NCBI GenBank assembly: GCA_041906465.1
Contig: JAYRJE010000015.1
Span: 105,340 to 169,339, forward strand
Length of the DNA: 64,000 nucleotides
Direction of reading: 5' to 3'
Origin: Candidatus Didemnitutus sp.
GTDB taxonomy: Bacteria > Verrucomicrobiota > Verrucomicrobiia > Opitutales > Opitutaceae
The position numbers were made by a program, and so were the translations under genes. Shown piece by piece: positions 9,347-57,625 of this stretch (within the stretch, counting starts at the first letter, position 1; every line of letters begins with the position of its first letter). The notes below the pieces were generated by a model, which ran no database searches, was not told the DNA's origin, and was given only the letters and a program-made list of their open reading frames with translations.

Positions 9347-12300
9347 ATGGTTGCCCGCTTTCTCCACGCTGCGCGCGGCGTGCTCGCCTTTGGTTTGGTT
9401 CGCGCGCTACTGGCCGTCGTCGTCTGTGCCGTCGCGGCCTTGCCGTCGGCGCGCGCGGCGGATCTCGACGCGTCCTTCGACGTCGACGCGCGCGCGTTCG
9501 GCATCGGTCTGGCGGTGGCGACGCAGCCGGATGGCAAGGTGCTCGTCGGCGGGTCGTTCAGCCGCGCCGATCGCGCTGAGGTCACGAACCTGGCGCGTTT
9601 CAACAGCGACGGCACGCGTGACACCACTTTCAATGTGGGTTCCTCCCTCGACGGTGCCGTGCGGTCCATCGCGGTGCAGAGTGACGGCAAGATCGTCATC
9701 GGTGGCACGTTCACCGGCTACGGTGCGACTTCGCGCAATCGCATCGCGCGGCTCAACGCCGACGGCTCGCTCGACACGAGTTTCAATCCGGGCACCGGCT
9801 TCGACCAGGAGGTCATCAGTCTCGCCATCCAGAGCGACGGCAAGATCGTGGCCGCGGGCGCGTTCACCACGTTCAACGGCACGGTGCGCAATCGCGTGGC
9901 CCGCCTCACGACTGCGGGCGCGCTCGACACCACGTTTCTCAACACCGGAGCGGGCGCGAACGGCATCGTGTGGGACGTCGCACTCCAAGCCGACGGCAAG
10001 CCGGTCATCGTTGGCGGTTTCACCAGCTACAACGGCACCGCGCGCGCTCGCGTCGCGCGCCTGACGACTGCCGGCGCGCTCGACACGACGTTCAATCCCG
10101 GCACCGGCGCGAATGCGGACGTGGTGGCCGTGGCGATCGACAGCGCGGGCCGCGCCGTGATCGGCGGCTTGTTCAGCACCTACAACGGCACCGCGCGCGC
10201 CTGCCTGGCACGCCTCACGACCGCGGGCGCGCTCGACACGACGTTCGCGAGCACGGCGGTGTTTTCCTCGAGCTACGATGCGATCCTCGACGTGCGGCTC
10301 GACAGCGCGGAGCGCGTCGTCCTCGCGGGCGATTTCTATCCGAGCTACCAATACAACTACAACACGCCGACGCAGGGGCTCGCGCGCCTGAACGCCGACG
10401 GCAACGCGCTCGACGAAACGTTCCTCGTGCGCGACACCGTGTGGAAAATCAGCCGCGCCGGCCTTTCCTTCCGCCGCATCATGTCGATCGCGCTCGGCGC
10501 CGACGATGGCGTCTTCGTGGCGGGCGGCATGTATGATCCGACTTCCGGCCAGGCGGGCGTGTTGCGCGTCAGCAACACCGGCGCACGCGACACGACCTTC
10601 AACGCCCGCGCGGGCATCTGGTTTCCGGCGAACATCAACGCCGTGCGTCCGGGCGCCGGGGGCAAATACTACGTCGCGGGCGCGTTCGACTGGATCGCCG
10701 GCGCGCGTCGCGTCGACCTCGCGCGCTTCCTGCCCAACGCGCAGATCGATTCGACCTTTTTCGCCTACGATTCCGATTTCACGGACAACCAGATCCGCGA
10801 AGTCGTCGAACTGCCCGATGGAAAAGTATGGGTGTTCGGTCCGTTCACGAAGATCGGTTCGCAGACGCGCACGGGCGCCGCATTGTTCAACGCCAACGGC
10901 TCGTTGAGCTACACGCCGCCCTTCCTCACCGTCACGGGCGGCAACGCGAACGGCAACGTGACGCGCGCGCTCGCGACCAGCAGCGGCGACGTCGTGCTCG
11001 CGGGCACATTCACGCAGGTGAACGCCACCGCGCGCCCCGGCATCGCGCGCATCACCGCGGCCGGTGTGCTCGACACGGCGTTCGCGCCCGGCGCGGGTCC
11101 GGTCGGCGGCGCGATCGAGGATGCAGCCCTTGATGCGAGCGGTCGCGTCGTGATCGGCGGCAGCTTCACCAGTTTCAGCGGCACGGCCGAAGGCTACATC
11201 GTGCGGCTCTCCACCGCGGGCGCCGTCGACGCGGCGTTTGCGGCGAACACCAACGTCAGCGCCGCCGTGAACAGCGTGCAGGTGCAGGCCAACGGCCAGA
11301 TCCTGCTCGGCGGCAGTTTCGCGAACTCCGGCGGCTACGTTTTCAACGGCACGACGCTGCTCAACGCCGACGGCACCACCGACACGACGTTCAATCCTTA
11401 TCCCGGGGCGAACAGCTCCGTCTTCCGCGCCCGCCGCGTGTCCGACGGCTCCGTCGTCGTCACGGGCGCGTTTACGCAGATGCAGAATCAGCCGCGCCCG
11501 CTGATCGCGCGCTTCACGACGAACGGTCCGATCGACTCGCTCTTCGCCACCGACACGATCGAGGGCGGCTATCCGGTCGACGTGCTCGAGCGCCCGGACG
11601 GCAAGCTGCTCGTGCGCGGCACCTTCACGATCGTCAACGGCCAGTCGCGCAACGGCCTCGCGCGTTTCCACTCGGCGCCGGTGCGTCGCGGTGGACTCGA
11701 GTCCGCGATGAACGGCGCGAACCTCGCCAACAACGTCGTCAACGCCGTCGTGCCGCTCGGCGACGGACGCTTCGTGGTCGCGGGCGATTTCACGACTTTC
11801 TCCGCCCAGTCCCGCTCGCGCGTCGCCGCCATCAACGTCTACGGCGAGGTCGACTCAACGTTCAACGTTGGCAGCGGCTTCAACGGCAGCGTCCTCGGTG
11901 GCGCGCTGCTGTCCTCCGGCAAGATTCTCCTCTGGGGCGGCTTCAGCAGCTACAACAACGCGGCCGCGCCCGGGCTCGTGCGTCTCAACACCGACGGCAC
12001 GCTCGACCCGACGTTCGTATCGCCCGTGTTCAACGCGGCCGTCAACGCCGTGCAAGTGCTCGCTGACGGCCGCTTGCTCGTCGGCGGCGCGTTCACGTTC
12101 GCCGGCGCGACGCAGGCGGGCGGCATCGTGCGGCTGCACGCGAACGGCGCGGTCGACACCACTTTCAACGCCGGCACCGGCGCGAACGGCGCCGTGTTCG
12201 CGGTCGCGCGCGCGAGCGACGGCAGCGTGTTCGCGGGCGGCGCGTTCACGACTTTCGCGGACGCGGCGGCGCCGGGCGTCGTGAAGCTCACGGCGGACGG

Positions 12301-15300
12301 CGCGCGCGCCTCCGGGTTTTCGATTGGCACGGGCAACGCGAACAACGCCAATCCGGTGCGCGCGCTCGCCGTGGCGAACGACGGCAAGCTGATCGTCGCG
12401 GGTTCGTTCGACGCGTGGGCCGACGCCAGCGTCGGCCGCATCGTGCGGCTCAATCTCGACGGTTCGCGTGATACGACTTTCCTCAACGGTTTCGGTGCGG
12501 ACGGCGCCGTGTATGCGCTCGCCGCGCTCAGTGACGGACGGCTCTACGTCGGCGGCGCGTTCACGACCTTCGGCGGCGGCGAACGTCGCGGCCTCGTGCG
12601 CCTGTCGGCGAACGGCGTGATCGATCCGGTGTTCGACGTCGGCGCAGGCTTCAGTGGCGGCGAAGTGCGCGCGCTCGGTCTCGCGTCGGACGGACGCGTC
12701 GCCGCGGGCGGCACGTTTTCGTCCTACCAAGGCGTGGCGCGCAGCCGCGTGGCGATTCTCTTCGGCAGCGACGAGACGAGTTACTCGCTCCCGGGCGATC
12801 AGATTTTCACGGCCAACATCGACCCCGGCGCGCCGTTCTCGCTCAGCTACGGCGCGGCGATCTCGGGCCTGCGTTATCAATGGTATCGCGACGGCGCGCG
12901 CATTCCGGGCGCGACCGGCGCGACTTATGCGGTGGCGTCGGCCGGTCTGGCCGATGCCGGCCTCTACACGCTCACGTTCAGCAACGGCTCCGGCGAATAC
13001 ACGACGCAGGGCTGGCGCGTGACCGTGAAACTCGCGCCGGTGATCGTCGGCGCCCCGATAACGCAATCGGTCGGTTACGGTGCGAGCGCGACGTTCAACG
13101 TGGGCGTCGCTGGTCCCGGGCCGTTCACTTACCAATGGTATCGCAACGGCACGCTGATCGCCGGTGCGACCGACAGCAGCTACACCGTCACGAATGTCAG
13201 CGGCGCCGACTTCGGTGCGACGTTCCACGTCCGCATCACGAACGCCTACGGTTTCAGCGATTCGACGCCGGTGGCGCTGACGTTCGACACGAACGCCGTC
13301 CCCGGCGCGCTCGTGCTGCCATTCTCTTCTCCGCAAGCGTGGTCGGGCAGCCCGACCGCGGTGGTTCGCGCGGCCGGCGGCCAGTATTACGTCGGCGGAA
13401 GCAGTGTCTTCGTGCGCCTCAACGCTGACGGCACGGTCGACTCGAGTTTCGCGCCGGCGCTCGGCTCCTTCACCGTCACGCGATTGGCGTTGCAGGCCGA
13501 CGGCAAGATCATCGCGGCCGGCAGCCTGCCCATCAATGGCACGACTTACCAAGTCGCGCGCTTCCTCACCAGCGGCGCGGTCGATCCGACCTTCACGCCG
13601 GTCGCGGTGACTCATTCGACGTCGAGCTGGTCCACGGAGATCAACGCGCTCGTGCTCCAGGCGGATGGCAAGATTCTCCTCGGTGGTTACTTCGACACCG
13701 TCGCGGGCACGACGCGGCGCTTCCTCGCCCGACTGAACACCAGCGGCGCGCTCGACTCCACGCTCGCGCCCACGAGCGACAGCACCGGCCCGAACAGCAC
13801 GGTGCTCAGCATCGTGCTGCAGGGCACCAACGTGATCATCGGCGGCGCGTTCACCACGTATGCCGGTGCGACGGTGAATTACCTCGCGCGTTTCGTCGCC
13901 AGCAACGGCGCGCGCGACACGACCTTCGCCGGCGGCACGCGCGCCGACGCGCTCGTGCGCGGCGTGGCCGCACAGGCGGACGGCGATCTGATCATCCATG
14001 GCAACTTCACGACCTACAACGGCACCGCGCGCGCCCGCCTCGCCCGGCTCAACGCCGATGGCTCGCTCGACACCGCGTTCAATCCCGGCTCAGGCGCCGC
14101 GAAGCGCTCGATTTGGGACTCCCCGAGCATCGCCGCCGCGCTCCCGAGCGACAACGGCACGGTGATCGTCGTCGGCTCCTTCGACAGTTTCTCCGGCTGG
14201 CCGGCCGTGAACTCCGTGCGCCTCACCAGCACGGGTGCGATCGACACCCAATGGGCTACGCCGGACAGCGGTTCGACCTCCTTCGGCCAGCTCTTTTCGC
14301 TGAGCGATGGCTCGCTGTTCGTGGGCTACACCTACGGCGGCTTCCTGCGCCTGTTGAGCGGTTCGTATCCGCCGCAGGCGCCCGCCATCGCGCGCGCTCC
14401 GGTGGCGCCGGGCGGCGAGCGGCCCGCCGGCGCGCGCGTCGAGCTCAGCGCGCTCGCGAGCGGCCCCGGCACGCTCACTTTCCAATGGTATCGCGGCACC
14501 ACCGCGCTGACGAACAGCACCACGGTTTCCGGCGCCACGTCGCCGGTGCTCACGTTGCGCAGCGTGCGCGCGAGCGAGGCGGGCAGCTACCAGCTGCGCG
14601 TCACGTCATCGACCAACGGCTTCGTCGAAACCACGCCGGTCAACGTCGCGGTCGGCGCCGAGCGCTCCGGCCCCGGCAGCCTCGATCTCACGTGGGCGGC
14701 CGATCCGATGCCGCGCATTTCCACCGTGCTCGCCTTCGCAAGCGACGGCAGCGCGATCGCGTCGATCTACGACAACAACCTGTCGCCCTCGCGGAGTTTC
14801 CTGCGGAAATTCGATGCGAACGGCGTGCTGTTGCCGACGACGACGTTCTCCTCCGGCGCGGGCTTCGAAGGCTACTTCAGCGAACTGCACGTGCAGTCCG
14901 ACGGGAAGATCATCGCCGTCGGCGCCCATCTCCCGCCGGGCAGCTCGACCGCGCGTTACCTCGCCCGCATGAACGCCGACGGCTCGTATGATACCGCTTA
15001 CACGACGGCGCCCGACAACTCCGTCAACGACTCCGTCCTGCAATCCGACGGAAAGCTCCTCATCGTCGGTTCGTTCGCCAACGTCAGCGGCACGGCCCGC
15101 GCGGGAGTCGCGCGCATTTTGACCACCGGTGGCGTGGACACGACGTTCACGCCCGGCGCGCACGGGCTGACTAATTTGCGCTTCGTCCGCCTCGCGACCG
15201 ACACCGCCAACCTCGGCAAGATCTACCTCGTCGGCTACAACTCGACGGTCAGCTCCGAGGAAATCGTTCGCCTCACTGCGGCGGGCGCGGTCGATGGAAC

Positions 15301-18300
15301 TTTCGCGCGCGTCGCCATCACGAACAACACGGTGCGCGACATCGCGCTCGACAGCTCCGGCCGTTTGCTGCTCACCGGCAATTTCACCACGGTCGCCGGC
15401 CAGGCGCGCCGGACGATCGCGCGCATCAATACCAACGGCACGCTCGACACGACCTTTGGGCCTGCGCGCTCCGCCGGTTTTTCCGCGACGCCGAGTTCGA
15501 TCGCGATCGGCACCGACGGCTGGATTTACCTCGCCGCCAGCGACAGCACTTCGACGACGTTTGACGGATTCCCGACCGGCCCGATCGTGCGCGTCGATGC
15601 GACGGCGGGTCAGCTCGACGTGAATTTCCCGGGCTCGGGCGGCATCCGCTACGAAAGCCTGAGCGAGGCGCGCCTCTGGTGGGTCGGGTCAAAGCTTGCG
15701 CTGAACGGCTACATTTCCGGTCCGTCGCGCACGGAGTTCATCCGCGTCAACGTCGACGGCGCGCCGACCGGTGCGCCGTCGCTGGTCGACAGCAGTGGCG
15801 ATCGCACGGTGGCCGACGGCTCGGCCTTGTCGCTCTTCGCGCGCTTCAGTGGCGCCGGGCCGTTCACCTATGTCTGGCGCAAGGACGGCAACGTCATCAC
15901 CGGTGCGACCGGACCGCAGCTCGTCATCACCGCCGTCTCCGCCGCCGACGCCGGCGCTTACACGGTCACGGCGACCAACACCAGCGGCTCCGCCACGGCG
16001 ACGATGAACGTCGCGCTCTTCTCGGCCGACCCGCTCGCGGCGGTCGGTGGCTTCCAACTCACCGCCAACTTCAACGGCTCGATCACCAACGCCGTGCGCT
16101 TCGCCGACGGTTCGGTGCTGGTCAGCGGCACGTTCACCACCGTCAACGGCACCGCCCGCCGCTCGCTCGCGCGCTTCACCGCAGCGGGTGCGCTCGACAC
16201 GACCTTCAACGCCAACGTGCCGCTCGCCACCTCGGGCGAGGTTCTCATCTCGAACCTCATCGTCGAACCCGACGGCCGCATCCTCGTGCACGGCGTGCTG
16301 CCGTTGAACAACAGCACGAGCGCCAGCCTCATCCGCCTCAACACGAACGGCACGCTCGCGGCCTCGATCCTCAACAGCACCAACCTGACCGGCGGCATCG
16401 CAGCGGTCGCGCGCCAGGCCGACGGAGGCATCGTCGTGATGGGACCGTTCACCTCGATTCTCGGCACCGCGCGCACCAATTTCGCGCGCATTACCTCCGC
16501 GGGCGCACTCGATACGACCTTCGTGCCGACGGGCCTCGACGCGTCCGACTATCGCCAGATCGCCGTCGATGCGACCGGCCGGATCTGGCTTCTGGGCAAT
16601 TTCACCCGCATCGGCACCGACTCGATCGGAGCCCGCGTCGTCCGTCTCGCGTCCACCGGCGTGTTGGACACCACGTTCCAGGCTCCGCTGTTCAACAACA
16701 CGCCATCGCGCGTTTTCTTCGCCGCGGACGGCCGCGCGTTCCTGCTCGGTCAGGCGAACTTCGTGCTGGGAGAACCTTCCCCGGTGGTGCTGCTCGATGC
16801 GACGGGAGCGGTGAATCGCGGCTTTCGGGTGGCGAGCACCTCGTCGGCGATCGCGCTGGCCGAGGACAGCGCGGGTCGTCTGCACGGCCTGTTCGGCAAT
16901 CAGATCCTCCGCCTCACGGCGACGGGTGAGATCGATCGCGTCATGAACGTCTCGTCGAGTCCGGGCGTGTTGCTCGGCGCGGGCGATCGCCTGCTCCTCG
17001 CCGGGGGCAGCCAGTTGTCATCCGTGGGCACGACGTCGGTGTTCGGTCTCGTCTATGCGAACGCCGCCGACACGGACACGTTCAGCCTGCTCGGTCCGCT
17101 GCCCGCCAATGCGAGCGTGGCGCAGGGCGGCGTGCTGGCGTTGCGTCCGGGCGTCCGCGGGGCGACGACCGGCACGGTGACCTACCAGTGGTTCCGCGAC
17201 GGCACGCCGATCGGCGGCGCCACCGGTCCGGCGCTCGTCTTGCCGAGCGCCACGGTGGCCGACCGCGGGGTCTACACGTTCACCGCGACGAAGGGCGGCG
17301 TCACGCTCACCGCGGGTCCGACGCAGGTCGATGTGATCGCGAACACCGCCCGCCCCGGCGAGGTGGACCTCGGGTGGAAAGCCAGCGTCCCGCTCTCGGG
17401 CGTCTCGAGGATCTTCTCCGATGCGGCCGACAATCTCTATCTGACCGGCAATGTCGTCGCCGGCACCGCGTCGCCGCGCGCGCTGGTCGCGCTCGATGCC
17501 GCGGGGACGGTGCGCAGCAACTTCACGCTGTCGAGCCGCGTGACCGGTTTTGTCTCCGGGCTCCGGTTCCTGAGCGGTGGCAAGCTGCTGCTCTACGGCC
17601 AAAGCCTGCAGCTGGACGGACTGGCGTGCACGCTCCTGCGGTTGAATGCCGACGGCACGCTCGACACCACGTTCACCACCAGCAGCGATCCGATCAACGA
17701 CCTGATCGTGCTGGGCGACGGTCGCCTGCTGGCGCTGACCAGCAGCGGCCTGATGCGTTACAGTGCGGCGGGCGTGCGAGACACGACATTCAGCTCGACC
17801 AGTTACCCGTCGGGCAACTTGTTCCCCGCGCCGGGCGGCAAGTTCTGGATCGTCGGTTCGCATTACGACCCGGTCTCCTACATCGTCAGCCGCTGGCTCA
17901 CGCGGGTGAACGCGGATGGCACCATCGACCCCACGTATGTTGGCCCCGCCTTGCGGCAGGGTGAGAATGTCTCCGCGGTGGCCGCGACGCCGGATGGCGG
18001 GCTCTACGTCGTGCTGCAGCTCAACGACAGCAACGTCAGCGGCTACGCCTTCGGTTATCGGCGGATCGTGCGGGTGCGGCCCGACGGCACCGTCGATGCG
18101 AGCTTCGCGGCCGGGACCTTCCAGTTTGGGCAGACCTCCTTCTCGATCTCGGACCTCGCCGCGGATGCGGCGGGCCGGTTGGTCGTCGTGGGCATGTTTG
18201 ATCGCTATGATGGCAGCGCCCGCAACGGCACCGTGCGTCTGTTGCCCGATGGCGCGATCGACCCCTCCTTCGTCTCCCTTGCGGCCCCGGCAATCGCGAG

Positions 18301-42842: not shown

Positions 42843-42922
42843 CGCTTTCGCCTTGCCTACGCCTTAGCTCGCCGAAGCGCACGTTGACGTGAGGGCCCGC
42901 CGGCTAAGCGAGGATAGGAAGC

Positions 42923-48196: not shown

Positions 48197-48199
48197 GCA

Positions 48200-50188: not shown

Positions 50189-50234
50189 GGTGGGAAGGTG
50201 AGCGCGCACGGGTTGGGGCTAAACAGCAGGAGGA

Positions 50235-50299
50235 ACCACGGATTTCTCGGATGGCACGGATGAAGCGCCTGGATCCGTGTGATCGGTGCAATCCGTGGT
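50235..50299. repeat. Intergenic inverted repeat with 9-bp-periodic arms (CACGGAT type)
   Basis: ACCACGGATTTCTCGGATGGCACGGAT (50235-50261), 11-nt spacer, ATCCGTGTGATCGGTGCAATCCGTGGT (50273-50299). Confidence 0.75.
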
Positions 50300-50455
50300 G
50301 GATGGCTTGAGCGGAATTGGGGTTGATCAGAAACGCCGCGGACGCGAGCGCGGGCGGAGCGGACCGTCAACCATCGAGGCTGCGCTTGCGACGCGCGGGC
50401 GAACGCGCTGGGATGCGGCTGTGATTCCGCCCGTGCAACGGCCCGACGCACCACG

Positions 50456-50578
50456 GTGGAGCGCATTGTCCTCAATGCGCTCGAGCGATCGTCCCGCGGC
50501 GAGAATTCGAGAACGCGTTGATGCGCCGGAGGCACACAAGGGGCTTGCCCGCCTCTGGCGGGTCAACGCGTTCCACCT
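50456..50578. repeat. Second inverted pair of the GTGG-footed REP-like family, one copy with an expanded loop
   Basis: GTGGAGCGCATTGTCCTCAATGCGCTCGA (50456-50484); GAACGCGTTGA (50511-50521) ... TCAACGCGTTCCACCT (50563-50578). Confidence 0.72.
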
Positions 50579-50639
50579 GCTACCGCCGCTCGCTCGAATC
50601 GTCATCGCCGTCGCGTTGTGGGCGTTGCCGTCGACGCCG

Positions 50640-51161
50640 ATGAGCGCGGCGGAGAACCTGGCGGACGTGCTGCGCGGCTTCCGGGTCGCACCGGCTGGAT
50701 TCGTGAGCGAGAACTTGCAGCGCGTCGCGGTTCCTTCGCCGAAGTCGCTCGTGCGCGAGTCGCGGCACGGCTATGCGGCGTGGGCGGCGGATGTTTTCTC
50801 GGCGGACGAACTCGCCGACGCGCGCTTGAGCGGGCCTGACGCCGTGCGTGCCGCGGATGGTCTGACGAATTTGGAAAAATACGCGCTCGGGCTCGATCCG
50901 CACGACGTGGCGCGCGCGGCTGACTTGCCCGAGAGCGGACAGCTCGATGACCACTGGTTTCTTTGGTATCGGCGTCCGAGCGACACCGACGACGTCGAGT
51001 ATCGCATCGAAGTTTCGACGGACGACGGCGCGACGTGGAGGAGCGGTGGCGTGACGCAGGAGCCGATCCTGGCGAACGACCTCGCCCAGTCCTGGCAGGC
51101 GCACTATCACGCGGCAGCGGGGCAGACGGTGCGCTGGCGGTTGGTGCCGCGACTGCGCTGA
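50640..51161 (+). CDS. Small protein consisting almost only of a diverged copy of the shared C-terminal domain (start uncertain)
   Basis: GYAAWAADVFSADEL...SGPDA...DGLTNLEKYALGLDP...W.L.YRRP....DVEYRIEVSTD...W..GGV...WRL aligns with the giant-protein CTDs. ATG at 50640, but a signal-peptide-like stretch (IVIAVALWALPSTPMSA) lies upstream in frame; alternatives are TTG 50616 and ATG 50475. Confidence 0.75.
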   Translation: MSAAENLADVLRGFRVAPAGFVSENLQRVAVPSPKSLVRESRHGYAAWAADVFSADELADARLSGPDAVRAADGLTNLEKYALGLDPHDVARAADLPESGQLDDHWFLWYRRPSDTDDVEYRIEVSTDDGATWRSGGVTQEPILANDLAQSWQAHYHAAAGQTVRWRLVPRLR

Positions 51162-51430
51162 GCAGCGCGCCTTTTCGCGATACGGTCGGGGCGGGGCAGC
51201 CTGTTTCCAGAAAAATCTTGCCGGCAATTGGGGGGATTTCAGCATGCGGGTTCGTCCATCGACAATGGGCCCACCAAATCGGGATGTTTTGGTGTGTCGG
51301 CGCGGCGAAACGACATTGCCATGGATCTTCCCCCGCCCCCGCCCTCCCGCGCGTCCCGCCGGACCGCGCGAAACCAAGAACGCGAGCGCGCTGACTTCCA
51401 GTGCGGCCCTGGAGTGTTGCCGCGCTGCCG

Positions 51431-54400
51431 ATGAGGACGGTGCGCTTCCCGTTCATCGCCGCCAAATGGGTGATGCTGGCGTGCGTAGTCTGGTCCGTTT
51501 CGCTGGCGGCAACGCCGCCGTCGACGAGCGTGATCGCGAGTGGCAGCTCCATCACCTTCGATGCCACGACCGAGGGAGCCACTTCCTACGGATGGTCGCG
51601 CAATGGTGAATATTTGGGGATTTCGAGCCCGCAGTTTGTGATCGAGAACGCGAGCGCGCTCCACGCGGGCTCCTATCAGGTGTCGATCGTCCATTCCACC
51701 GGGGTGAGTTACCGCATGTTCCATGTGCGGGTCGCGCGTTCGAATGTCGTGCAGGCGTGGGGGGATAATACCTTCGGGCAATGCGCCGTGCCGGCGGGAC
51801 TGCACGATGTGGTCGATCTCAGTGCGGGGCAGGATCACACCTTGGCGTTGCGGAGTGACGGAACGGTGGTCGCCTGGGGACGGAACGATCACGGGCAGTG
51901 CGCGGTTCCCGTGGGATTGAGCGGCGTCGTGCAGGTGGCTGCCGGTGCGGATCATAGTGTCGCGCTCAAAGCGGACGGCTCGGTCGTGGCGTGGGGATTG
52001 AACACCAGCGGGCAGTGCGCGGTGCCGGCGGGTCTCACTGGCGTGGGTTTCGTTGCCGCGGGCGGTGCCCACACGATTGCGCTCAAACACGACGGAACCG
52101 TGGTGGCGTGGGGCGACAACGCCTATGGGCAGACGGATATTCCCTATGCGATCCGTCCCCTCCGGACGATCTCGGCCGGTCTGACGCACAATGTTGCAAT
52201 CACTGACGTTGGTCGCGTGGTGGCGTGGGGGGACAATGAATCTGGGCAGTCGACCCCGTCGTGGGATACTTACGCCACGGCGGTGCACGCGGGCGAAAAG
52301 TTCACGGCTTACCTCAACTCCGGGCGACAGCTATGGTATTTTGGCAAGCTCGTGCCGGCGATGCCGTCGGGAAGCTACGCGGTCGCGCTTTCCGGTCGCG
52401 CGCGGCATGGCTTGGCGCTGCGGGCAGATGGCTCAGTCGTGGCCTGGGGGCCGAACGTCAGCGGAGAAGGCAGCATTCCGGCGGGGATTGGCAACGTGCA
52501 GCAGGTGGCGGCGGGCCGGGCGCACAGTGTGGTGGCGCTGTCGGGTGTTCCGCCCACGATCACGCTTCAGCCAGTGGCGCAAACGGCGGCGGAAGGTGAC
52601 TCGGTAGCCTTCACGGTCGCCGCGGGTGGCGCCGCCACTTACCAATGGCTGCATGAGGGAGTCGCGCTGACCGATGGTGGACGATTTGCCGGCACATCGA
52701 CCGCAACACTCACGATCAGCCCTGTGCAAGAGACCGACGCCGGCAGTTACACCGTGCGCATGGGCAATCCGTTTGGGGAGGTCACCTCGCAGCCCGCTCT
52801 GCTGGCGGTGCACCCTCTGATCGTGCGCGCTCAAGGAACGGCACTGGCCAACAGCGACGGCTCCCAGGTCACGTTGAGCGTGTCGGTGTCCGGGGTGGGG
52901 CCCTTCACCTATCAGTGGTATCGCGGCCAGTCGGGAGATACTTCAACTCCGGTGAACGGTGGCGTCTCGGCTACGCTCACGGTTGCACAGACAACGGCGG
53001 CGGACCCTTACTGGGTGCGAGTCTCCAATGGCATGGCGCAGGCGGACAGCGTCACGATTCCCGTGGGCAAATGGCAGGTGATCGATCCGGTGTTTGGTGC
53101 CTCGCCCCTCTACGCGGTCGCTTATGGCGGCGGAAACTATGTCGTGGTTGGGGGCTCGGTCGGATACTCGACGACGGGGCGGGAGTGGCAAGTGGGCGCC
53201 ATCGAATCGGGGGCGGATTTGCGCACCGTCGTGCACGACGGAACGCGCTTTGTCGCGGCGGGCACGGGCGGGCAGGTGTTCGTTTCCGGCGATGGGGCGC
53301 TATGGACGAAGTTGCGGGCGGCGGACGTGAATGCAGACACGGACCTGCCGCACGCGGCGGCCGTCGGCAATGGGACCGTGGTTTTCCTCGGTTTTCGTCA
53401 GGTGCTGACCTCGACGGATGGCACCGCCTGGGCCTGGCGGGTGATCAACGCCGATGGGCAGACGATCGTGCTCCGGTCGATCGCTTTTGGCGCCGGGCGC
53501 TTCGTCGCGGTGGGCGCAACCTCAGCCAACTTTGGATCTCCGTGCATTTTTTCCTCCCTCGACGGCGTGAATTGGACTCAGGCCACGGTGCCGCTCACCT
53601 CGCCGAATGGGTCCTACAAGCTCGGGGATTTGCAGCAGGTGCATTACCTGGGCGGACGGTTTGTGGCCTTGGGAATGCTGGCCTACTCCAGCAACTCGAA
53701 TTACGTGCTGAGTTCGACCGACGGCGTCACGTGGAGCACCGCGGTGGCGAGCAATCTCACGGTCTCTCCGGAATTCATGGCCCTGGGGAACGGCCAGCTG
53801 GTATCTGCGGATTTGCGCACCTCGGCGGATGGCATCACCTGGTCGGCGTCGCGGGGTAATTTGCCACCGGGCCATCCGCGGGGGCTCAGTTTCGGCAACG
53901 GCCTCTTCTTTTACCTGAGTTACGCGGACAACGACACTTATTCCTCGATCGCGACCTCGTCGGATCTGAGCAACTGGACGACGCGAACCGGATTCGGTGT
54001 TCCTGAGTATGTCGGCTACGGCAGCGGACGATTTGTGGGATTTGCGCGGGAGCGGACGGGTTATTCGCTGGATGGGCTGACTTGGACGGCGACGGATGGT
54101 TTGGGATACTCCGTCGCCACCGAAGATGTCTCCTACGGGAACGGCCTGTTCGTGGCGCGCGACACCACCGGAAGAAACGTCACACACTACACGTCGAGCG
54201 ACGGCATCACTTGGACGGCGCGCACCGCCGCGGCGCTCAATGGCACCCAGGTGTTCGCCACGATTCGCTACCTGAATGGCCAGTGGGTTGGCGTCAGCGC
54301 CGGCATCGGCATCCTGACCTCGCCGGACGCGGTGACGTGGACAAAATGCTTTGCCGACACCAACTACTACTATCGTGACATCGCTTATGGAGCGGGGCGG

Positions 54401-57400
54401 TATGTGGCCGTCGGACGGAACGGGCGGGTTGTCGTCTCCACCGACGGCCTCAACTGGACGGCCCATCCCCAGGCGGAATCTCTGCTTTTTTATCGCGTCG
54501 TCTTTGGCGCCGGCGTCTTTGTCGCCACGGATGGGACAAACCTGTGGAGCTCGGCCGACGGCACGCAATGGACCGCACGGAACCGGCCGATAAAAAGCAG
54601 CGGCAGCTACACTGGGTTTGTTTCCAGCCTGGAATATGCCGACGGCAATTTCGTCGCCACGTATGGCAGCGACGTCCTCCGGTCGGCTAACGGCGTAGAC
54701 TGGCAGGTGCTGTCGGGCGTGCTGCCGCCGCCGGTGAACGGTAACTATTTCACCGGCCGACTCGTGGTGGCGGACGGCAAACTTTGGGCGATCGGTTCCA
54801 CCTTCGGCGGGCTTCCCTTCTGGCTGCGCGCTCCGCGTGTGGCCAGTCCGCCCGCCATCACGGCATCGCCGGCGGATGTCGTGATCGCCAGTGGTGGCAG
54901 CGCGACGCTGACGGTGGCTGCGAGCGGCTCGGACCTGACCTATCAATGGTATCGTGGTCCGGCGGGCGATGCTTCCAATCCGATCGTTGGCGCCAGCGGA
55001 GCATCCTACGTCACGCCCGCGCTGACTCAAACCGCGCAGTATTGGGTGCGGATCACCAACGCGGACGGTGCGGCAAGCAGTCCGACGGTGACGGTGGCCA
55101 TCGGCAGTGCGCCGGTCATCACGACTCACCCGGTCGATCTGGATGTCCTGGCCGGTTCCACGCCGAACCTCGCGGTCGTCGCTACCGGCAATCCGGCTCT
55201 CAGTTACCAGTGGTATCGCGGGGAGAGTGGCGATACGTCGCGACCGGTCGCCGGTGCGACCGGCGGCAGTTACACTCCGCCCACCGACGGCGCGTATGCC
55301 GTGCGGTATTGGGTGCGCGTGAGTAACACCTTGGGCACAGCGGACAGTCGCGCCGTGATTGTGACTCCATGGTTCGCTCGGAGCACGCTCGTCAATCAGT
55401 TGATCGCCGGAGTGGTTCACGGCGCGGGTCGCTGGGTGGTGCAGGGATTCTCCGACAACGATTACTTTTCGGACGATGGGGCTGCCTGGAGCAGAACAAC
55501 CACGGCCGTCGGCGGCCAAAGCGGTGGCCCGGTCGCGTGGGGCAACGGAATCTTTGTCGCCGCCGATTCCGACACGGTCGGCGCGCTTTGGGTTTCGTCG
55601 GACGGCAGCACGTGGAGGAAGATCTTCGTGCCGGGGAGCAGTGCCGGATTCACGCAGGTCGCTTACGCCGGAGGCTACCTGTTTGCGCTGGGCGCGGAAG
55701 GCAAGTTTGCGACGTCGGTCGACGGCACCAACTGGACGCTGCGCGGCGTCGGGAGCAGCGTGTATCTGCACGACGTTGCTTACGGCAACGGTCGTTACGT
55801 GATGGCGGCGGGACTCACCACGCACACTTCGACGGATTTGAGCGCGTGGGAATCCTTCGCCGTCGCGGACGGCGATATTCGAATCTCGGCGTTGAGCTTT
55901 GGAGCCGGAAAATTTGTGGCGGTCGGCGGAGCCAATCAGGGCCGGATCATGACCTCGACCGATGGCGCGAGTTGGACGGTGCGCTACACCTCCAACTCAA
56001 ACGGCGTTCACGATGTCGCGTTCAATGGCTCGCGCTTCGCGGTGTCCGCGAGCGACTACTTGCTCGTGTCGCGCGACGGGCTGGACTGGAGAGCGCTTTC
56101 GCTGCCTGAAACCTCCGTGATCGCATCCGGAGCCGGCCGTTTTCTGGCCGTCGGCAATTTTGCGGCCTGGCAGAGCGCGGCGGATGAGCTGCTCGGTCCG
56201 GTGATCACCGCGCAACCCACCCAACAGTCCGTGGTGGCCGGCGCGGATGCCACTTTCCGCGTTACTGCCGTCGGCGGCACGCTGACCTATCGCTGGCAGA
56301 AAGACGGCGTCGACCTTTCCGGCGCCACGGGTGCGACGCTTACGCTCGCCAACGTCACCGCTGCCGACGCGGGACTCTATTCCGTCGTGGTGACGAACGA
56401 GGCCGGCGCGGTGGTCTCGGAAGTTGCGCGCCTCACCGTCGTGGCATTGCCGCACCTCGTCGCTCAGCCCCAGGCGCAGACCATCAAGGAGGGACAGCCG
56501 ATCTACTTCGAGGTCGTCGTGGCGGGAGACGCTCCGACGACGTATGTGTGGTATCGGGACAACGTTCCCATCGCTGGCGCGATCGATGCGCGGCTCCGCT
56601 TCAGTGCGGTGCAGCCGAGTGATGCCGGCTCTTACACGGTGAAGGTGACCAACGCCGCGGGCTCGGTGACGTCCGCCCCGGCGATCCTGACGGTTGCGAC
56701 GGTCCCCGTCATTACTCTGCAGCCCGCGTCGCAAAGCACCACCATTGGCGTGCCGGTGAGCTTCACCCTCACGTCCACCGGGACGGGAATGTTTCACTAC
56801 CAATGGGAGACGTCGCCCGCGGGCTCCGACACCTGGAGCTATGTGCCGCTGGAGGCCGGCTACACCGGCGTCATGAGCCAGACGCTCACGGTCGTGTCGC
56901 CGACTGCCGCGGATAGCGGGCGGCGATTCCGCTGCGTGGTCATGGACGACGTGGGCTTGGCGCGGTCCCAAGCGGCGACGCTGACGGTCAGGCTCAATCC
57001 GCAGACGATCACGTTTGCGAGTCCTGGTGACCAGTCGTTCAGCTTCACGCCGCTCAAGCTCACCGCCAGCGCGAGCTCCGGTCTGCCGGTGAGTTTCGCG
57101 ATCGATTCGGGCCCGGCCAGCGTGGACGGTAACACGCTCACGCTCACTGGCACCGGCTCGGTGACCGTGCGCGCTTCGCAGGGAGGCGACGCGTCCTACG
57201 CCGCGGCGGCAAGCGTCGTGCGCACGTTCACGGTGACGGCCAGTTTCGCTTTCTGGCAGCTGAACGCATTCTCGCCTGCTGAGCGGAGCGATCCGACGGT
57301 TAGTGGTCCCCAGGCCGATCCCGATGCGGATGGAATTTCGAATCTGATGGAATACGCACTCGGCCTGGATGCCCGAAGCGCATCGGCGATGGGCGTGCCG

Positions 57401-57625
57401 GTCGTGGCGCTCGAGTCAGGCCACTGGTCGTTCACCTACACGCGACCGGCGGATCGCTCCGACGTCGTCTACACCGTCGAGCGGTCCGACGATCTTGTGC
57501 GCTGGAGTCGTGATGGTCTCGTGCACGCGCGCGTGTCGGTTGCGGACGGGGTTGAAACCTGGCGTGCAACCTATCCGACCGCTTCCGCCCCGGTTTGCTT
57601 TTTCCGGTTGGTGGTCACGCGCTGA
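51431..57625 (+). CDS. Large secreted/surface protein (about 2064 aa): RCC1-like propeller, two blocks of SxDGxxW repeats, Ig-like domains, QTITF domain, shared C-terminal domain
   Basis: ATG 51431 and signal peptide (MRTVRFPFIAAKWVMLACVVWSVSLAA); RCC1 blades at about 51750-52545; repeated 'V.YGxGxFVAV...xSxDGxxW' at about 53070-54840 and 55370-56190; shared CTD. Confidence 0.86.
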   Translation: MRTVRFPFIAAKWVMLACVVWSVSLAATPPSTSVIASGSSITFDATTEGATSYGWSRNGEYLGISSPQFVIENASALHAGSYQVSIVHSTGVSYRMFHVRVARSNVVQAWGDNTFGQCAVPAGLHDVVDLSAGQDHTLALRSDGTVVAWGRNDHGQCAVPVGLSGVVQVAAGADHSVALKADGSVVAWGLNTSGQCAVPAGLTGVGFVAAGGAHTIALKHDGTVVAWGDNAYGQTDIPYAIRPLRTISAGLTHNVAITDVGRVVAWGDNESGQSTPSWDTYATAVHAGEKFTAYLNSGRQLWYFGKLVPAMPSGSYAVALSGRARHGLALRADGSVVAWGPNVSGEGSIPAGIGNVQQVAAGRAHSVVALSGVPPTITLQPVAQTAAEGDSVAFTVAAGGAATYQWLHEGVALTDGGRFAGTSTATLTISPVQETDAGSYTVRMGNPFGEVTSQPALLAVHPLIVRAQGTALANSDGSQVTLSVSVSGVGPFTYQWYRGQSGDTSTPVNGGVSATLTVAQTTAADPYWVRVSNGMAQADSVTIPVGKWQVIDPVFGASPLYAVAYGGGNYVVVGGSVGYSTTGREWQVGAIESGADLRTVVHDGTRFVAAGTGGQVFVSGDGALWTKLRAADVNADTDLPHAAAVGNGTVVFLGFRQVLTSTDGTAWAWRVINADGQTIVLRSIAFGAGRFVAVGATSANFGSPCIFSSLDGVNWTQATVPLTSPNGSYKLGDLQQVHYLGGRFVALGMLAYSSNSNYVLSSTDGVTWSTAVASNLTVSPEFMALGNGQLVSADLRTSADGITWSASRGNLPPGHPRGLSFGNGLFFYLSYADNDTYSSIATSSDLSNWTTRTGFGVPEYVGYGSGRFVGFARERTGYSLDGLTWTATDGLGYSVATEDVSYGNGLFVARDTTGRNVTHYTSSDGITWTARTAAALNGTQVFATIRYLNGQWVGVSAGIGILTSPDAVTWTKCFADTNYYYRDIAYGAGRYVAVGRNGRVVVSTDGLNWTAHPQAESLLFYRVVFGAGVFVATDGTNLWSSADGTQWTARNRPIKSSGSYTGFVSSLEYADGNFVATYGSDVLRSANGVDWQVLSGVLPPPVNGNYFTGRLVVADGKLWAIGSTFGGLPFWLRAPRVASPPAITASPADVVIASGGSATLTVAASGSDLTYQWYRGPAGDASNPIVGASGASYVTPALTQTAQYWVRITNADGAASSPTVTVAIGSAPVITTHPVDLDVLAGSTPNLAVVATGNPALSYQWYRGESGDTSRPVAGATGGSYTPPTDGAYAVRYWVRVSNTLGTADSRAVIVTPWFARSTLVNQLIAGVVHGAGRWVVQGFSDNDYFSDDGAAWSRTTTAVGGQSGGPVAWGNGIFVAADSDTVGALWVSSDGSTWRKIFVPGSSAGFTQVAYAGGYLFALGAEGKFATSVDGTNWTLRGVGSSVYLHDVAYGNGRYVMAAGLTTHTSTDLSAWESFAVADGDIRISALSFGAGKFVAVGGANQGRIMTSTDGASWTVRYTSNSNGVHDVAFNGSRFAVSASDYLLVSRDGLDWRALSLPETSVIASGAGRFLAVGNFAAWQSAADELLGPVITAQPTQQSVVAGADATFRVTAVGGTLTYRWQKDGVDLSGATGATLTLANVTAADAGLYSVVVTNEAGAVVSEVARLTVVALPHLVAQPQAQTIKEGQPIYFEVVVAGDAPTTYVWYRDNVPIAGAIDARLRFSAVQPSDAGSYTVKVTNAAGSVTSAPAILTVATVPVITLQPASQSTTIGVPVSFTLTSTGTGMFHYQWETSPAGSDTWSYVPLEAGYTGVMSQTLTVVSPTAADSGRRFRCVVMDDVGLARSQAATLTVRLNPQTITFASPGDQSFSFTPLKLTASASSGLPVSFAIDSGPASVDGNTLTLTGTGSVTVRASQGGDASYAAAASVVRTFTVTASFAFWQLNAFSPAERSDPTVSGPQADPDADGISNLMEYALGLDARSASAMGVPVVALESGHWSFTYTRPADRSDVVYTVERSDDLVRWSRDGLVHARVSVADGVETWRATYPTASAPVCFFRLVVTR

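What the first reader, a model, noticed from the sequence alone, without database searches (positions are those of the whole stretch)
9347..57625. One architectural grammar, three unrelated propeller families
Seen: three proteins share the layout signal peptide, [repeat block + Ig]n, QTITF domain, common CTD. They fill the repeat slot with delta-60-type repeats (9347-22045), RCC1/BLIP-II-like repeats (22458-42821), or RCC1 plus SxDGxxW repeats (51431-57625). Inference: a mix-and-match surface-display system in which cargo modules are exchanged onto a constant export/anchor end, analogous to polymorphic toxin or T9SS cargo families.
Basis: partly seen in the sequence, partly recalled or inferred. 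Interest (0 to 1): 0.65.

Follow-up and report, generated by a model that had tools for sequence, protein, structure and literature searches.

The report
Shared tail on giant surface proteins
A sewage-sludge bacterium of the phylum Verrucomicrobiota carries five neighbouring genes, three of them giant chains of propeller-shaped domains. All five end in the same 135-residue tail domain, which is absent from the domain libraries searched; it is probably a cell-surface anchoring or sorting tag, and it has been combined with different cargo slowly over evolution, not swapped as cassettes.

Summary
Proteins A (9347-22045), B (22458-42821) and D (51431-57625) have the stated layout: signal peptide, [7-bladed propeller + Ig]n, QTITF domain, common C-terminal domain (CTD). 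The propeller slot holds delta-60/DUF5122, RCC1_2 (39-aa blades) or RCC1_2 plus SxDGxxW Asp-box repeats. Two more genes carry the CTD: C (42923-48196, no propellers, no QTITF) and E (about 50475-51161, signal peptide + CTD only).

The CTD has no Pfam, NCBIfam or PDB sequence match. Its model is confident (pLDDT 94.5): an EF-hand-like DxDxDGxxNxxE loop plus a beta-sandwich. A profile search found 20,486 protein clusters. Among the 141 closest, 132 carry a single CTD at the extreme C-terminus, and 64 of them scanned carry 54 Pfam families. Every genome hit returned is Verrucomicrobiota.

Related genomes carry different gene sets at this locus, including a chimera, a 248-aa remnant of D, and no giant genes at all. 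One protease head occurs with either a GlyGly-CTERM tail or the CTD. There is no sign of active cassette exchange: paralogous tails are about 50-57% identical, orthologues are colinear over 3,500-6,800 residues, all 13 repeats of B have positional orthologues, and 98-99% identical contigs in other samples cover B, C and D. The CTD's function is inferred, not shown.

The parts
9347..22045 (+). Gene A (4234 aa from the TTG at 9341; ATG at 9347). Signal peptide, about 59 delta-60/DUF5122 blades in about 9-10 propeller blocks, 8 Ig domains, QTITF, CTD.
21395..21634 (+). QTITF domain of A (aa 4019-4098). It is Ig-like and is not in Pfam.
21638..22042 (+). CTD of A (aa 4100-4234).
22458..42821 (+). 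Gene B (6787 aa). Signal peptide or signal anchor, metzincin head, Ig, 13 RCC1_2 propeller blocks (twelve followed by two Ig domains, the last by one), QTITF-MBG-QTITF, CTD.
23229..23528 (+). Reprolysin-like zinc-protease region of B. It holds an intact HELGHNLALSHD motif starting at aa 312 (about nt 23391).
24567..41702 (+). The 13 super-repeats of B. Blade period is 117 nt and super-repeat period is about 1.34 kb. Paralogous repeats are 35-41% identical at protein level.
41709..42410 (+). QTITF (aa 6418-6497), MBG_3 (about aa 6509-6577) and QTITF (aa 6572-6651) of B.
42414..42818 (+). CTD of B (aa 6653-6787).
42923..48196 (+). Gene C (1757 aa). Signal peptide, N-terminal 630-nt-spaced repeats, two Flg_new_2 domains, no propeller, no QTITF, CTD.
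47789..48193 (+). CTD of C.
50475..51161 (+). Gene E. A small secreted protein made of a signal peptide, a conserved N-peptide (LRGFRxAPAGFV) and a CTD-like domain whose Ca-loop is degenerate. The start codon is uncertain. The CTD lies at 50742-51158.
51431..57625 (+). Gene D (2074 aa from the GTG at 51401). Signal peptide, Ig, RCC1_2 x7, Ig2, Asp-box block, Ig2, Asp-box block, Ig3, QTITF, CTD.
51746..52543 (+). RCC1_2 propeller of D (aa 116-381).
53051..54871 (+). First SxDGxxW (Asp-box) block of D (aa 551-1157), with 9 exact motifs.
55349..56218 (+). Second SxDGxxW (Asp-box) block of D (aa 1317-1606), with 5 exact motifs. Pfam DUF6242 scores 33.7 bits here.
56975..57214 (+). QTITF domain of D (aa 1859-1938).
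57218..57622 (+). CTD of D (aa 1940-2074).
3384..4898 (+). Context gene: matrixin + Ig protein with a GlyGly-CTERM-like tail. Its head is homologous (42-46%) to the N-terminus of CTD-ending giants in two related genomes.
4870..5514 (+). Context gene: rhombosortase.
504..2525 (-). Context gene: GspD-type secretin. It is the end of a gspF-gspE-gspD backbone seen in a related genome.

Best explanation
The window comes from an Opitutaceae bacterium (phylum Verrucomicrobiota) in activated sludge. It holds an island of five genes for proteins whose N-termini look like Sec signal peptides and which all end in one 135-residue domain (CTD) absent from the libraries searched.

Shown:
- The CTD is an autonomous fold: short helices carrying an EF-hand-like DxDxDGxxNxxE loop, packed on a 6-7-strand beta-sandwich.
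- It is a very large family seen here only in Verrucomicrobiota genomes. It is almost always the last domain and sits on highly diverse cargo.
- In half of its closest relatives a QTITF Ig-like domain comes directly before it.

Inferred:
- The CTD is a cell-surface retention or sorting module that holds the C-terminus at the outer membrane, perhaps by Ca2+-dependent binding to a surface glycan or protein.
- The N-terminal part projects outward as a rod of 7-bladed propellers spaced by Ig domains. In B, and in protein Y of a related genome, the rod is tipped by a zinc protease. The rod would act as a multivalent binding or adhesion array.
- Export is probably through Sec and then possibly the adjacent type II secretion system.

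Evolution, shown by comparison. The family diversifies by slow shuffling of whole domain blocks, by repeat-block gain and loss, and by gene gain, loss and decay in a variable island. The island is inserted between a rhombosortase gene and gene E. It does not diversify by ongoing cassette exchange.
For: CTD homology among five genes: E = 1e-21 to 1e-46, 33-57% identity.

CTD as an uncurated fold. There is no Pfam or NCBIfam model and no PDB sequence match. The AlphaFold2 (AF2) model has pLDDT 94.5 and pTM 0.85. Foldseek against the PDB gives only generic Ig-like matches with TM <= 0.43.

Family size and position. The profile search found 20,486 representatives at E <= 1e-3 and 4,683 at E <= 1e-10. 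Of the 141 closest, 132 have a single CTD at the extreme C-terminus and 71 have QTITF directly before it.

Cargo and taxonomy. The 64 members scanned carry 54 Pfam families, including matrixin, PhoX, cyclophilin, NHL, PATR and He_PIG. About 63% of representatives that start with Met pass a crude signal-peptide rule, and many of the rest are evidently truncated gene calls.

The CTD sits where a known anchor sits. The matrixin head has a GlyGly-CTERM-like tail next to a rhombosortase in the window and in Didemnitutus. Homologous heads sit on giants in JACPIT and L082: Y ends in the CTD, while in L082 the gene call is split into a 2861-aa head protein and P0125, which ends in the CTD.

Slow evolution. 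A/X are 67% identical and B/Z 50% identical, both colinear. All 13 of B's repeats have positional orthologues. DNA repeats are 60-82% identical and no tandem-repeat array was detected. CTD identity groups follow gene lineages.

Variable island. Four related genomes carry four different gene sets.

Secretion system. A T2SS secretin lies next to the island. Giant genes lying beside T2SS-like loci have been reported in Omnitrophota (10.1101/2023.11.21.568195).
Against: - No experiment or localisation data bears on the CTD. Anchoring and sorting are inferred from position, paralogy and cargo diversity only.
- No gene is a conserved neighbour of CTD genes (the best cluster is in 7 of 79 loci), so no machinery has been identified.
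- A few relatives have tandem copies (2-5), internal copies or even an N-terminal CTD-like domain. Gene E is a CTD-only protein. Both fit a general binding module better than a strictly terminal translocation signal.
- E and its relatives lack the acidic Ca-loop residues, so Ca2+ binding cannot be essential to the fold.
- Linkage to the T2SS is seen only at this island's insertion site, not generally.
- Propeller and Ig arrays as adhesins is a generic inference.
Confidence: 0.55

Rival explanations
1. The CTD is a substrate- or ligand-binding module, for example a Ca2+-dependent carbohydrate- or protein-binding domain. It would be part of the proteins' working end and not an anchor. The proteins would be released or anchored by some other means.
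For: Tandem, internal and N-terminal copies exist in a few relatives. A stand-alone secreted form, E, is conserved across Opitutaceae. The beta-sandwich fold with an Asp-box-like hairpin is typical of binding modules. A PL11 rhamnogalacturonan lyase gene is syntenic with E.
Against: The domain is terminal in 132 of the 141 closest relatives. Its cargo range (peptidyl-prolyl isomerase (cyclophilin), PhoX, proteases, adhesin-like repeats) is broader than usual for a substrate-binding module. It occupies the position that a GlyGly-CTERM anchor occupies on a homologous cargo. No match to any carbohydrate-binding-module family or lectin was found.
Confidence: 0.2
2. The CTD is the recognition signal of a dedicated, still unknown Verrucomicrobiota secretion and attachment pathway. 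It would be a true functional analogue of the T9SS C-terminal domain, possibly cleaved and replaced by a lipid or glycan anchor.
For: The hallmarks match the T9SS CTD. The domain is folded, about 100-135 aa, beta-sandwich and terminal. It is restricted to one phylum, has many paralogues per genome, carries diverse cargo and accompanies N-terminal Sec signals.
Against: No candidate machinery is linked to CTD genes. The CTD follows QTITF with no linker or obvious cleavage motif (alignment). Non-terminal and tandem copies exist. There is no match to the T9SS models.
Confidence: 0.2
3. One reading: an active mix-and-match system in which cargo cassettes are recombined onto a constant end, in the manner of polymorphic toxins.
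For: Y is a chimera. Y's CTD is 76-77% identical to that of its neighbour Z, whereas the orthologues B and Z are 62% identical, which hints at some exchange or conversion between neighbours. D has decayed to a 248-aa tail remnant in a relative whose backbone genes are about 90% identical. On a neighbour-joining (NJ) tree of CTDs, cargo class needs 57 changes when the minimum possible is 6.
Against: Tails within the genome are about 50-57% identical and there is no shared near-identical DNA. Orthologues are colinear over thousands of residues. All 13 of B's repeats have positional orthologues. Contigs 98-99% identical to the window cover B, C and D in other samples. No toxin or immunity genes are present. 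The NJ test is weak because the domain is short and the sequences are cluster representatives at 50% identity.
Confidence: 0.05

Closest known systems
T9SS C-terminal domain (CTD) cargo proteins of Bacteroidota (TIGR04183 / TIGR04131)
   Same: A folded beta-sandwich domain at the extreme C-terminus of proteins with Sec-type signal peptides. There are many paralogues per genome, the cargo is very diverse, the domain is restricted to one phylum, and cargo genes are scattered rather than linked to the machinery.
   Different: There is no sequence match to the T9SS CTD models and no T9SS CTD among the top 50 structural matches listed. This domain has an extra helical sub-domain with an EF-hand-like loop. 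The host phylum is Verrucomicrobiota. No T9SS genes lie in the window. Rare tandem or internal copies exist. The function has not been tested.
GlyGly-CTERM / rhombosortase sorting (Haft and Varghese 2011, PMC3237569)
   Same: It is a C-terminal sorting element in a many-to-one pairing with its processing enzyme. A bona fide rhombosortase and a GlyGly-CTERM-like protease lie in the same window, and the homologous protease head is found on CTD-ending giants elsewhere.
   Different: GlyGly-CTERM is a short Gly-rich motif followed by a transmembrane helix and a basic tail. The CTD is a 135-aa soluble domain with no transmembrane segment.
Non-covalent envelope-anchoring modules of surface proteins, such as SLH domains and the Ca2+-dependent LPS-binding N-terminal domain of Caulobacter RsaA (from my own knowledge)
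   Same: These are autonomous modules that tether large extracellular proteins to the cell envelope. They may occur in tandem, and binding can depend on Ca2+.
   Different: No sequence or fold relationship was detected, and the ligand is unknown.
Giant genes of the PVC supergroup encoded next to T2SS-like loci (West-Roberts et al. 2023, bioRxiv 10.1101/2023.11.21.568195)
   Same: Very large secreted multi-domain proteins lie beside gspD/E/F homologues in a related lineage and are proposed to act in adhesion.
   Different: The Omnitrophota proteins have different domain content (SecA-like regions, transmembrane regions, dockerin-type). No shared CTD was reported in the passages read.
Polymorphic toxin systems (Zhang et al. 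2012, PMC3482391)
   Same: The proteins are modular and combine constant and variable parts.
   Different: The polarity is reversed, with the constant part at the C-terminus. There is no toxin domain and no immunity gene. The constant parts are only about 50-57% identical. No cassette arrays are present.
BLIP-II / RCC1_2, delta-60 (TIGR02608, DUF5122) and Asp-box propellers
   Same: The three repeat families in the cargo slots are ordinary members of these known propeller repeat families.
   Different: They are arranged as long beads-on-a-string arrays with Ig spacers, and 13 consecutive propellers in B are each conserved one-to-one in an orthologue that is 50% identical.

Membership tests
T9SS CTD cargo | The C-terminal domain matches the Por secretion tail models (TIGR04183 type A or TIGR04131 type B). 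| tested here: not met
   NCBIfam scans of A, C, D and E report no such family. B's CTD was not scanned against NCBIfam; the Pfam scan of isolated CTDs at E <= 5 gives nothing relevant.
T9SS CTD cargo | The host encodes T9SS machinery (SprA/Sov, PorU, PorV) and is typically Bacteroidota. | not testable with these tools
   Only 64 kb of the genome is available and none of its genes match. All related loci are Verrucomicrobiota.
T9SS CTD cargo | An N-terminal Sec signal plus a terminal folded domain on diverse cargo, with many copies per genome. | tested here: met
Polymorphic toxin system | A variable C-terminal toxin domain on a conserved N-terminal trafficking region, followed by an immunity gene. 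| tested here: not met
   The conserved part is C-terminal. There are no toxin families in the Pfam scans. The genes downstream are a further giant gene, a lyase and a LysR regulator.
Polymorphic toxin system | Near-identical constant regions with sharp recombination breakpoints between alleles or strains. | tested here: not met
   Tails are 48-57% identical at protein level and 62-72% at DNA level. Contigs 98-99% identical to the window cover the same genes in other samples.
GlyGly-CTERM / rhombosortase (tested on the protein at 3384-4898, not on the giants) | A rhombosortase (TIGR03902) is encoded in the genome. | tested here: met
   The protein at 4870-5514 scores 101 bits against a cut-off of 84.
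GlyGly-CTERM / rhombosortase (tested on the protein at 3384-4898, not on the giants) | A C-terminal Gly-Gly motif, then a hydrophobic helix, then a basic cluster. | tested here: inconclusive
   The tail PSGGGGGGGGGAPSHWFFAALALTALARWRQRRQ fits by eye, but no GlyGly-CTERM model was reported by NCBIfam at E <= 0.1. A, B, C and D have no such tail.
delta-60 repeat / DUF5122 propeller (A) | Matches TIGR02608 / PF17164 above the curated cut-off. | tested here: met
   788.9 bits against 76.5, and 1148 bits against 27.
RCC1_2 / BLIP-II-like propeller (B and D) | Matches PF13540 above the cut-off, with about 40-aa blades in sevens. | tested here: met
   305, 452 and 146 bits against a cut-off of 22. 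Blade spacing is 117 nt. Most blocks have 6-8 blades (5-8 overall).
Asp-box (BNR) propeller (D) | Repeated S-x-D-x-G-x-x-W hairpins, and matches to BNR-type models. | tested here: inconclusive
   There are 14 exact SxDGxxW motifs, one residue shorter than the canonical form. DUF6242 scores 33.7 bits, above its 29-bit cut-off, but BNR_2 scores 18.8 bits, below its 31.4-bit cut-off.
Dockerin / EF-hand / TSP3 Ca-binding modules (CTD loop) | Matches Dockerin_1, an EF-hand model or a TSP_3 model. | tested here: not met
   The only match is TSP_3 at E = 0.27. The DxDxDGxxNxxE pattern is read from the sequence and is degenerate in E.
T1SS RTX giant adhesins (LapA/SiiE type) | No Sec signal, C-terminal RTX repeats and secretion signal, and an adjacent ABC / membrane-fusion-protein / TolC transporter. 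| tested here: not met
   N-terminal signal-peptide-like segments are present. There are no RTX/HemolysinCabind hits. There are no T1SS genes in the window.

The most novel reading that the evidence does not exclude
The 135-aa CTD is the address tag of an undescribed surface-display pathway specific to Verrucomicrobiota. It would be functionally equivalent to the T9SS CTD or to the sortase signals, serving thousands of cargo proteins. The small conserved CTD-only protein E, which sits beside the T2SS/rhombosortase backbone, would be a dedicated accessory such as an adaptor, a cap or a competitor.
Probability: 0.25. Interest if true: 0.75.

Novelty: new variant of a known kind. Interest (0 to 1): 0.5.

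Why it matters
Verrucomicrobiota are abundant in soil, water, sludge and the gut, but how they display proteins on their surface is largely unknown.

A single domain absent from the libraries searched ends more than 4,600 protein clusters at E <= 1e-10 and more than 20,000 at E <= 1e-3. These include enzymes and some of the largest proteins in these genomes. That makes the domain a strong candidate for the phylum's general anchoring or sorting tag.

Defining it would:
- improve annotation of thousands of hypothetical proteins;
- allow the surface proteome to be predicted from sequence;
- give a handle (CTD fusions) for finding the machinery or the envelope ligand.

The locus also gives a clear picture of how giant repeat proteins evolve. 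Thirteen propellers have each been kept one-to-one at 50% identity, while whole genes appear, fuse and decay in neighbouring genomes.

The propeller, Ig and protease parts themselves are ordinary.

Tried and rejected
- **Tandem and direct repeats.** Tandem Repeats Finder at score >= 200 over 9-58 kb found nothing. The direct-repeat scan gave only blades and Ig domains at 60-82% identity and tails at 62-72%, so there is no recent duplication or conversion tract.
- **PDB sequence searches.** The CTD profile, C and the B head gave nothing useful.
- **Foldseek against the PDB.** The confident CTD model gave only generic Ig, MHC, cytokine-receptor and CBM21-like sandwiches with TM <= 0.43, so no family could be assigned.
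- **Pfam at E <= 5.** Isolated CTD and QTITF domains gave only noise: BNR_2 at 0.028, TSP_3 at 0.27, Big_3_5 at 0.051.
- **Neighbourhood clustering.** ORFs from 79 loci were clustered to find a linked machinery gene. The best cluster is an ABC ATPase in 7 loci. Two unknown proteins follow CTD genes directly in 6 and 4 loci, mostly labelled Verrucomicrobiales, Akkermansiaceae or unclassified Verrucomicrobiota. Nothing is general.
- **CTD tree against cargo class.** The Fitch score is 57, against a random mean of 68 (random minimum 61) and a possible minimum of 6. I treat this as weak evidence because a 135-aa NJ tree of representatives at 50% identity is poorly resolved.
- **Literature.** Four full-text searches found no description of this CTD.
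- **Readings rejected.** T1SS RTX adhesin: signal peptides are present, and there are no RTX repeats and no transporter. Autotransporter: there is no beta-barrel domain. PEP-CTERM and other short CTERM signals: there is no transmembrane tail. Artefactual ORFs: GC3 is 0.77-0.88 and full-length orthologues exist.

Full report
**1. What is in the window**

The window is high-GC (63-73%). Its backbone genes are 69-87% identical at protein level to Candidatus Didemnitutus (Opitutaceae, Verrucomicrobiota). Its 31-mers are fully held by one activated-sludge metagenome run.

Four very long + strand ORFs have the GC3 signature of real genes:
- A: 9341/9347-22045, 4234 aa.
- B: 22458-42821, 6787 aa.
- C: 42923-48196, 1757 aa.
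- D: 51401/51431-57625, 2074 aa.

tblastn with B's last 135 residues finds five copies of the same C-terminal domain (CTD) in the window: the ends of A, B, C and D, and a small ORF E with its CTD at 50769-51146. E-values run from 8e-21 to 2e-46.

**2.

Pfam and NCBIfam assign A to DUF5122/delta-60 (1148 and 789 bits). B has RCC1_2 and WD40_RLD together with about 26 Ig domains and an MBG_3 domain. D has RCC1_2, Ig domains and weak BNR/DUF6242 matches. D carries 14 exact SxDGxxW motifs, and A, B and C carry none.

HMMs built from single blades find 59 delta-60 blades only in A, 87 RCC1 blades in B and 8 in D, and 16 Asp-box blades only in D. One of D's 8 is a short hit (aa 991-1012) inside its Asp-box block. 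The three repeat families are therefore unrelated at sequence level.

The domain maps confirm the 'grammar':
- A: signal peptide, 21 blades, Ig2, six [6-7 blades + Ig] units, QTITF, CTD.
- B: signal peptide, a zinc-protease head (HELGHNLALSHD), Ig, 13 propeller blocks of about 7 blades (39 aa each; twelve followed by two Ig, the last by one), QTITF-MBG-QTITF, CTD.
- D: signal peptide, Ig, RCC1x7, Ig2, a double-size Asp-box block, Ig2, an Asp-box block, Ig3, QTITF, CTD.

C has a signal peptide, N-terminal repeats, two Flg_new_2 domains and the CTD, but no propeller and no QTITF. E is a signal peptide, a short conserved peptide and the CTD. The invariant element is therefore the CTD. The unit shared by A, B and D is Ig-QTITF-CTD, about 220-290 aa at roughly 50% identity. 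Upstream of it similarity collapses to 10-25%.

**3. What the CTD is**

It has no Pfam-A (2025 copy) or NCBIfam (release 20) model, even at E <= 5 for the isolated domain, and no PDB sequence match. QTITF also has no model.

With a 110-sequence alignment AlphaFold2 gives a confident model (pLDDT 94.5, pTM 0.85). Short helices include the most conserved stretch, GPxADxDxDGxxNLxEYALGxxP. By position this stretch is an EF-hand-like loop (D1, D3, D5, G6, N9, E12). The helices pack on a 6-7-strand beta-sandwich that contains an Asp-box-like S-x-D-L-x-x-W hairpin and ends in ...FFRLxVTR. Foldseek against the PDB returns only generic Ig-like sandwiches with TM <= 0.43, and none of the 50 listed matches is a T9SS CTD.

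A profile search of 1.84 billion cluster representatives finds 20,486 proteins at E <= 1e-3, 4,683 at E <= 1e-10 and 310 at E <= 1e-30. Among the 141 closest:
- 132 have one CTD within 15 residues of the C-terminus.
- 71 have QTITF directly in front of it.
- 86 have the same Ig type.
- 5 have two to five tandem copies.
- Two have a single copy elsewhere: N-terminal in P0196 and internal in P0215.

Host protein lengths run from 124 to 6732 aa. Pfam on 64 of these proteins finds 54 families, including matrixin (6 proteins), RCC1, DUF5122, NHL, He_PIG, PATR, cyclophilin, SGL and PhoX. They span Opitutales, Verrucomicrobiales, Chthoniobacterales, Methylacidiphilales and Akkermansiaceae, with up to 10 loci from a single MAG. 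No neighbouring gene is conserved across these loci; the best cluster is in 7 of 79. Four literature searches found no description of the domain.

**4. How the locus evolves**

Four related genomes give four different gene sets on one backbone.

(a) Didemnitutus GCA_019634575 has the order gspF-gspE-gspD | p2600 homologue - matrixin with Ig (502 aa) - rhombosortase - E. It has no giant genes. In the window the block histidine kinase - response regulator - A - B - C - RG lyase lies between the rhombosortase and E, and D lies after E.

(b) The Opitutia MAG JACPIT010000013 has the order X - p2600 homologue - Y - Z - ... - RG lyase - E.
- X is 67% identical to A over 3,477 colinear residues.
- Z is 50% identical to B over 6,788 colinear residues and has the same 13 super-repeats.
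- Y (4972 aa) has a matrixin head that is 46% identical to the window's 504-aa GlyGly-CTERM protein (3384-4898).
- Y's next segment is RCC1/Asp-box and is 43% identical to D over 1,578 residues.
- Y then has three blocks whose sequence shows canonical RCC1 motifs (GQLGDGTT; read by eye).
- Y ends in a B/Z-type QTITF-MBG-QTITF-CTD tail.

(c) An ENA metagenome contig (loci L079/L082) has backbone genes 86-91% identical to the window's. It carries:
- an A orthologue of 4232 aa;
- a p2600 homologue;
- a matrixin-headed 2861-aa ORF abutting a 2599-aa RCC1/Ig/CTD ORF, which together look like a split Y-type gene;
- a C orthologue (92% identical and 157 aa longer);
- the RG lyase and E;
- at D's position, a 248-aa ORF whose last 188 residues are 82% identical to D's tail, that is, a remnant.

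It has no B orthologue there.

(d) A full-length D orthologue (81% identical) exists in another sample.

The locus is therefore a variable island, and heads, propeller blocks and tails have been recombined.

**5. This is slow evolution, not an exchange system**

- CTDs of the four large proteins within the window are 48-57% identical; E's CTD is 33-39% identical to them. DNA of the tails is 62-72% identical.
- CTD identities group by gene lineage: {A,X} 77%, {D,D2,Drem} 78-92%, {C,C2} 85%, {B,Z,Y,Yl} 62-76%.
- The one clear incongruence is Y. Its cargo is D-like, but its CTD is 65-76% identical to B and Z and only 55% identical to D. Y-Z, which sit in the same genome, are 76% identical, exceeding the orthologous B-Z pair at 62%. 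This suggests an old tail replacement or some conversion between neighbours.
- Each of B's 13 super-repeats finds its positional counterpart in Z as best hit (42-54% identity, against 35-41% for paralogues). The array therefore predates the split and shows no concerted evolution.
- Contigs 98-99% identical to the window from a wastewater metagenome and a biofilm metagenome cover B, C, E and D at even depth.
- A cargo-class parsimony test on a CTD NJ tree needs 57 changes, against a random mean of 68 and a possible minimum of 6. This is compatible with much shuffling over deep time, but it is weak because the tree is poorly resolved.

**6. How it most likely works**

Shown: the CTD is a phylum-wide, terminal, autonomous domain on diverse cargo, and most of these proteins have N-termini that look like Sec signal peptides.

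Inferred: the CTD is a surface retention or sorting module. The strongest indirect argument is positional equivalence. The same matrixin head carries either a GlyGly-CTERM-like tail beside a rhombosortase that passes the TIGR03902 cut-off (concept from PMC3237569) or a giant stalk ending in the CTD. Enzyme heads sit at the N-terminus (B, Y), as expected if the C-terminus is the attached end. The EF-hand-like loop suggests Ca2+-stabilised folding or binding, but E-type proteins lack it.

Export across the outer membrane may use the adjacent T2SS. Giant genes next to T2SS-like loci have been reported in Omnitrophota (10.1101/2023.11.21.568195). This linkage is local to the island, not general.

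The tandem, internal and stand-alone forms favour a binding or anchoring module over a strictly terminal translocation signal. I give 0.55 to 'anchor/sorting module on slowly shuffled cargo'. Within and beside that:
- a dedicated T9SS-like pathway, about 0.2;
- a substrate-binding module, about 0.2;
- active cassette exchange, about 0.05.

**7. Comparison with known systems, and novelty**

Functionally the closest analogue is the T9SS CTD, but membership fails on sequence models, fold match and host phylum. It is not a polymorphic toxin system: the polarity is reversed, there is no toxin or immunity gene, and the constant part is diverged. It is not a T1SS RTX adhesin, an autotransporter or a short CTERM signal.

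The propeller, Ig, MBG and protease parts are ordinary members of known families. What is new is an uncurated, very large C-terminal domain family of Verrucomicrobiota, often paired with QTITF, together with the documented variable island. I rate it a new variant of a known kind, with interest 0.5.

Noticed in passing
window 504-5514: A type II secretion / rhombosortase backbone. It comprises a GspD secretin (504-2525, - strand), an unknown secreted protein 'p2600' (about 2816-3454), a matrixin + Ig protein ending in PSGGGGGGGGGAPSHWFFAALALTALARWRQRRQ (3384-4898), and a rhombosortase (4870-5514; TIGR03902 at 101 bits against a cut-off of 84). The same gene order, with E directly after the rhombosortase, occurs in Didemnitutus GCA_019634575 (L081).
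   Followed up: partly
window 50475-51161 (E); P0003-P0034; L079, L081: E belongs to a conserved Opitutaceae family of small secreted proteins of about 175-230 aa. Each has a signal peptide, a conserved N-peptide (LRxFRAAPAGxVxENL) and a CTD-like domain in which the acidic Ca-loop residues are lost (AVRAADG). The gene is syntenic with the RG lyase or the rhombosortase in every genome examined. Its function is unknown.
   Followed up: partly
window 23391-23426 (B aa 312-323): B carries an intact metzincin zinc-binding motif, HELGHNLALSHD, in a reprolysin-like N-terminal head. The motif is conserved in the 50%-identical orthologue Z, so this 6787-aa protein is probably a protease-tipped stalk.
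   Followed up: partly
window 43036-43965 (C N-terminus): There are two 300-nt direct repeats at 81% identity, spaced 630 nt apart. Contigs of the source run break between 43.2 and 44.3 kb. The 92%-identical orthologue P0123 is 157 aa longer. Repeat copy number in C is probably variable or collapsed in assembly.
   Followed up: partly
window 42000-58000: GC content drops from about 70% over A and B to about 63-67% over C, the RG lyase, E and D. This was not explained. It could reflect a different origin or a different amino-acid composition.
   Followed up: no
window 5687-9234: A hybrid histidine kinase (HisKA, HATPase, receiver, Hpt) and a LuxR-type response regulator sit directly upstream of A. 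They are absent from the island-free Didemnitutus locus, so they are possible dedicated regulators of the giant genes.
   Followed up: no
window 48200-50209 (- strand): A PL11 rhamnogalacturonan lyase gene (RGL11_C at 669 bits) is convergent with C, with a 3-nt gap between them. It is 85-90% identical in relatives, far more conserved than the neighbouring giant genes (B/Z 50%, A/X 67%).
   Followed up: partly
window about 58800-59960: An alginate-export-like porin ORF (Alginate_exp, E = 2e-31) lies between the LysR and MFS genes. It has no counterpart at that position in the relative L079, whose backbone is about 90% identical.
   Followed up: no
window 50494-50560: Contigs of runs X1 and X3 include a variant in which about 65-76 nt upstream of E's signal peptide are replaced by 25-37 other nucleotides. 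This is strain heterogeneity in E's 5' region.
   Followed up: no
L038, L046, L048, L049, L051, L056 (about 670-aa ORF) and L006, L018, L032, L058 (about 380-aa ORF): Two families of unknown secreted proteins recur near CTD genes, mostly in MAGs labelled Verrucomicrobiales, Akkermansiaceae or unclassified Verrucomicrobiota. The about-670-aa ORF lies directly downstream of the CTD gene in all six loci listed. The about-380-aa ORF does so in L006 and L018, but lies elsewhere in L032 and L058. Neither has a Pfam match. They are possible lineage-specific partners.
   Followed up: partly
P0127, P0135, P0141, P0150, P0196, P0215: Rare proteins carry 2-5 tandem CTD-like domains, or a single one at the N-terminus (P0196, directly after the signal peptide) or inside the protein. 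The domain is therefore not obligatorily terminal.
   Followed up: partly
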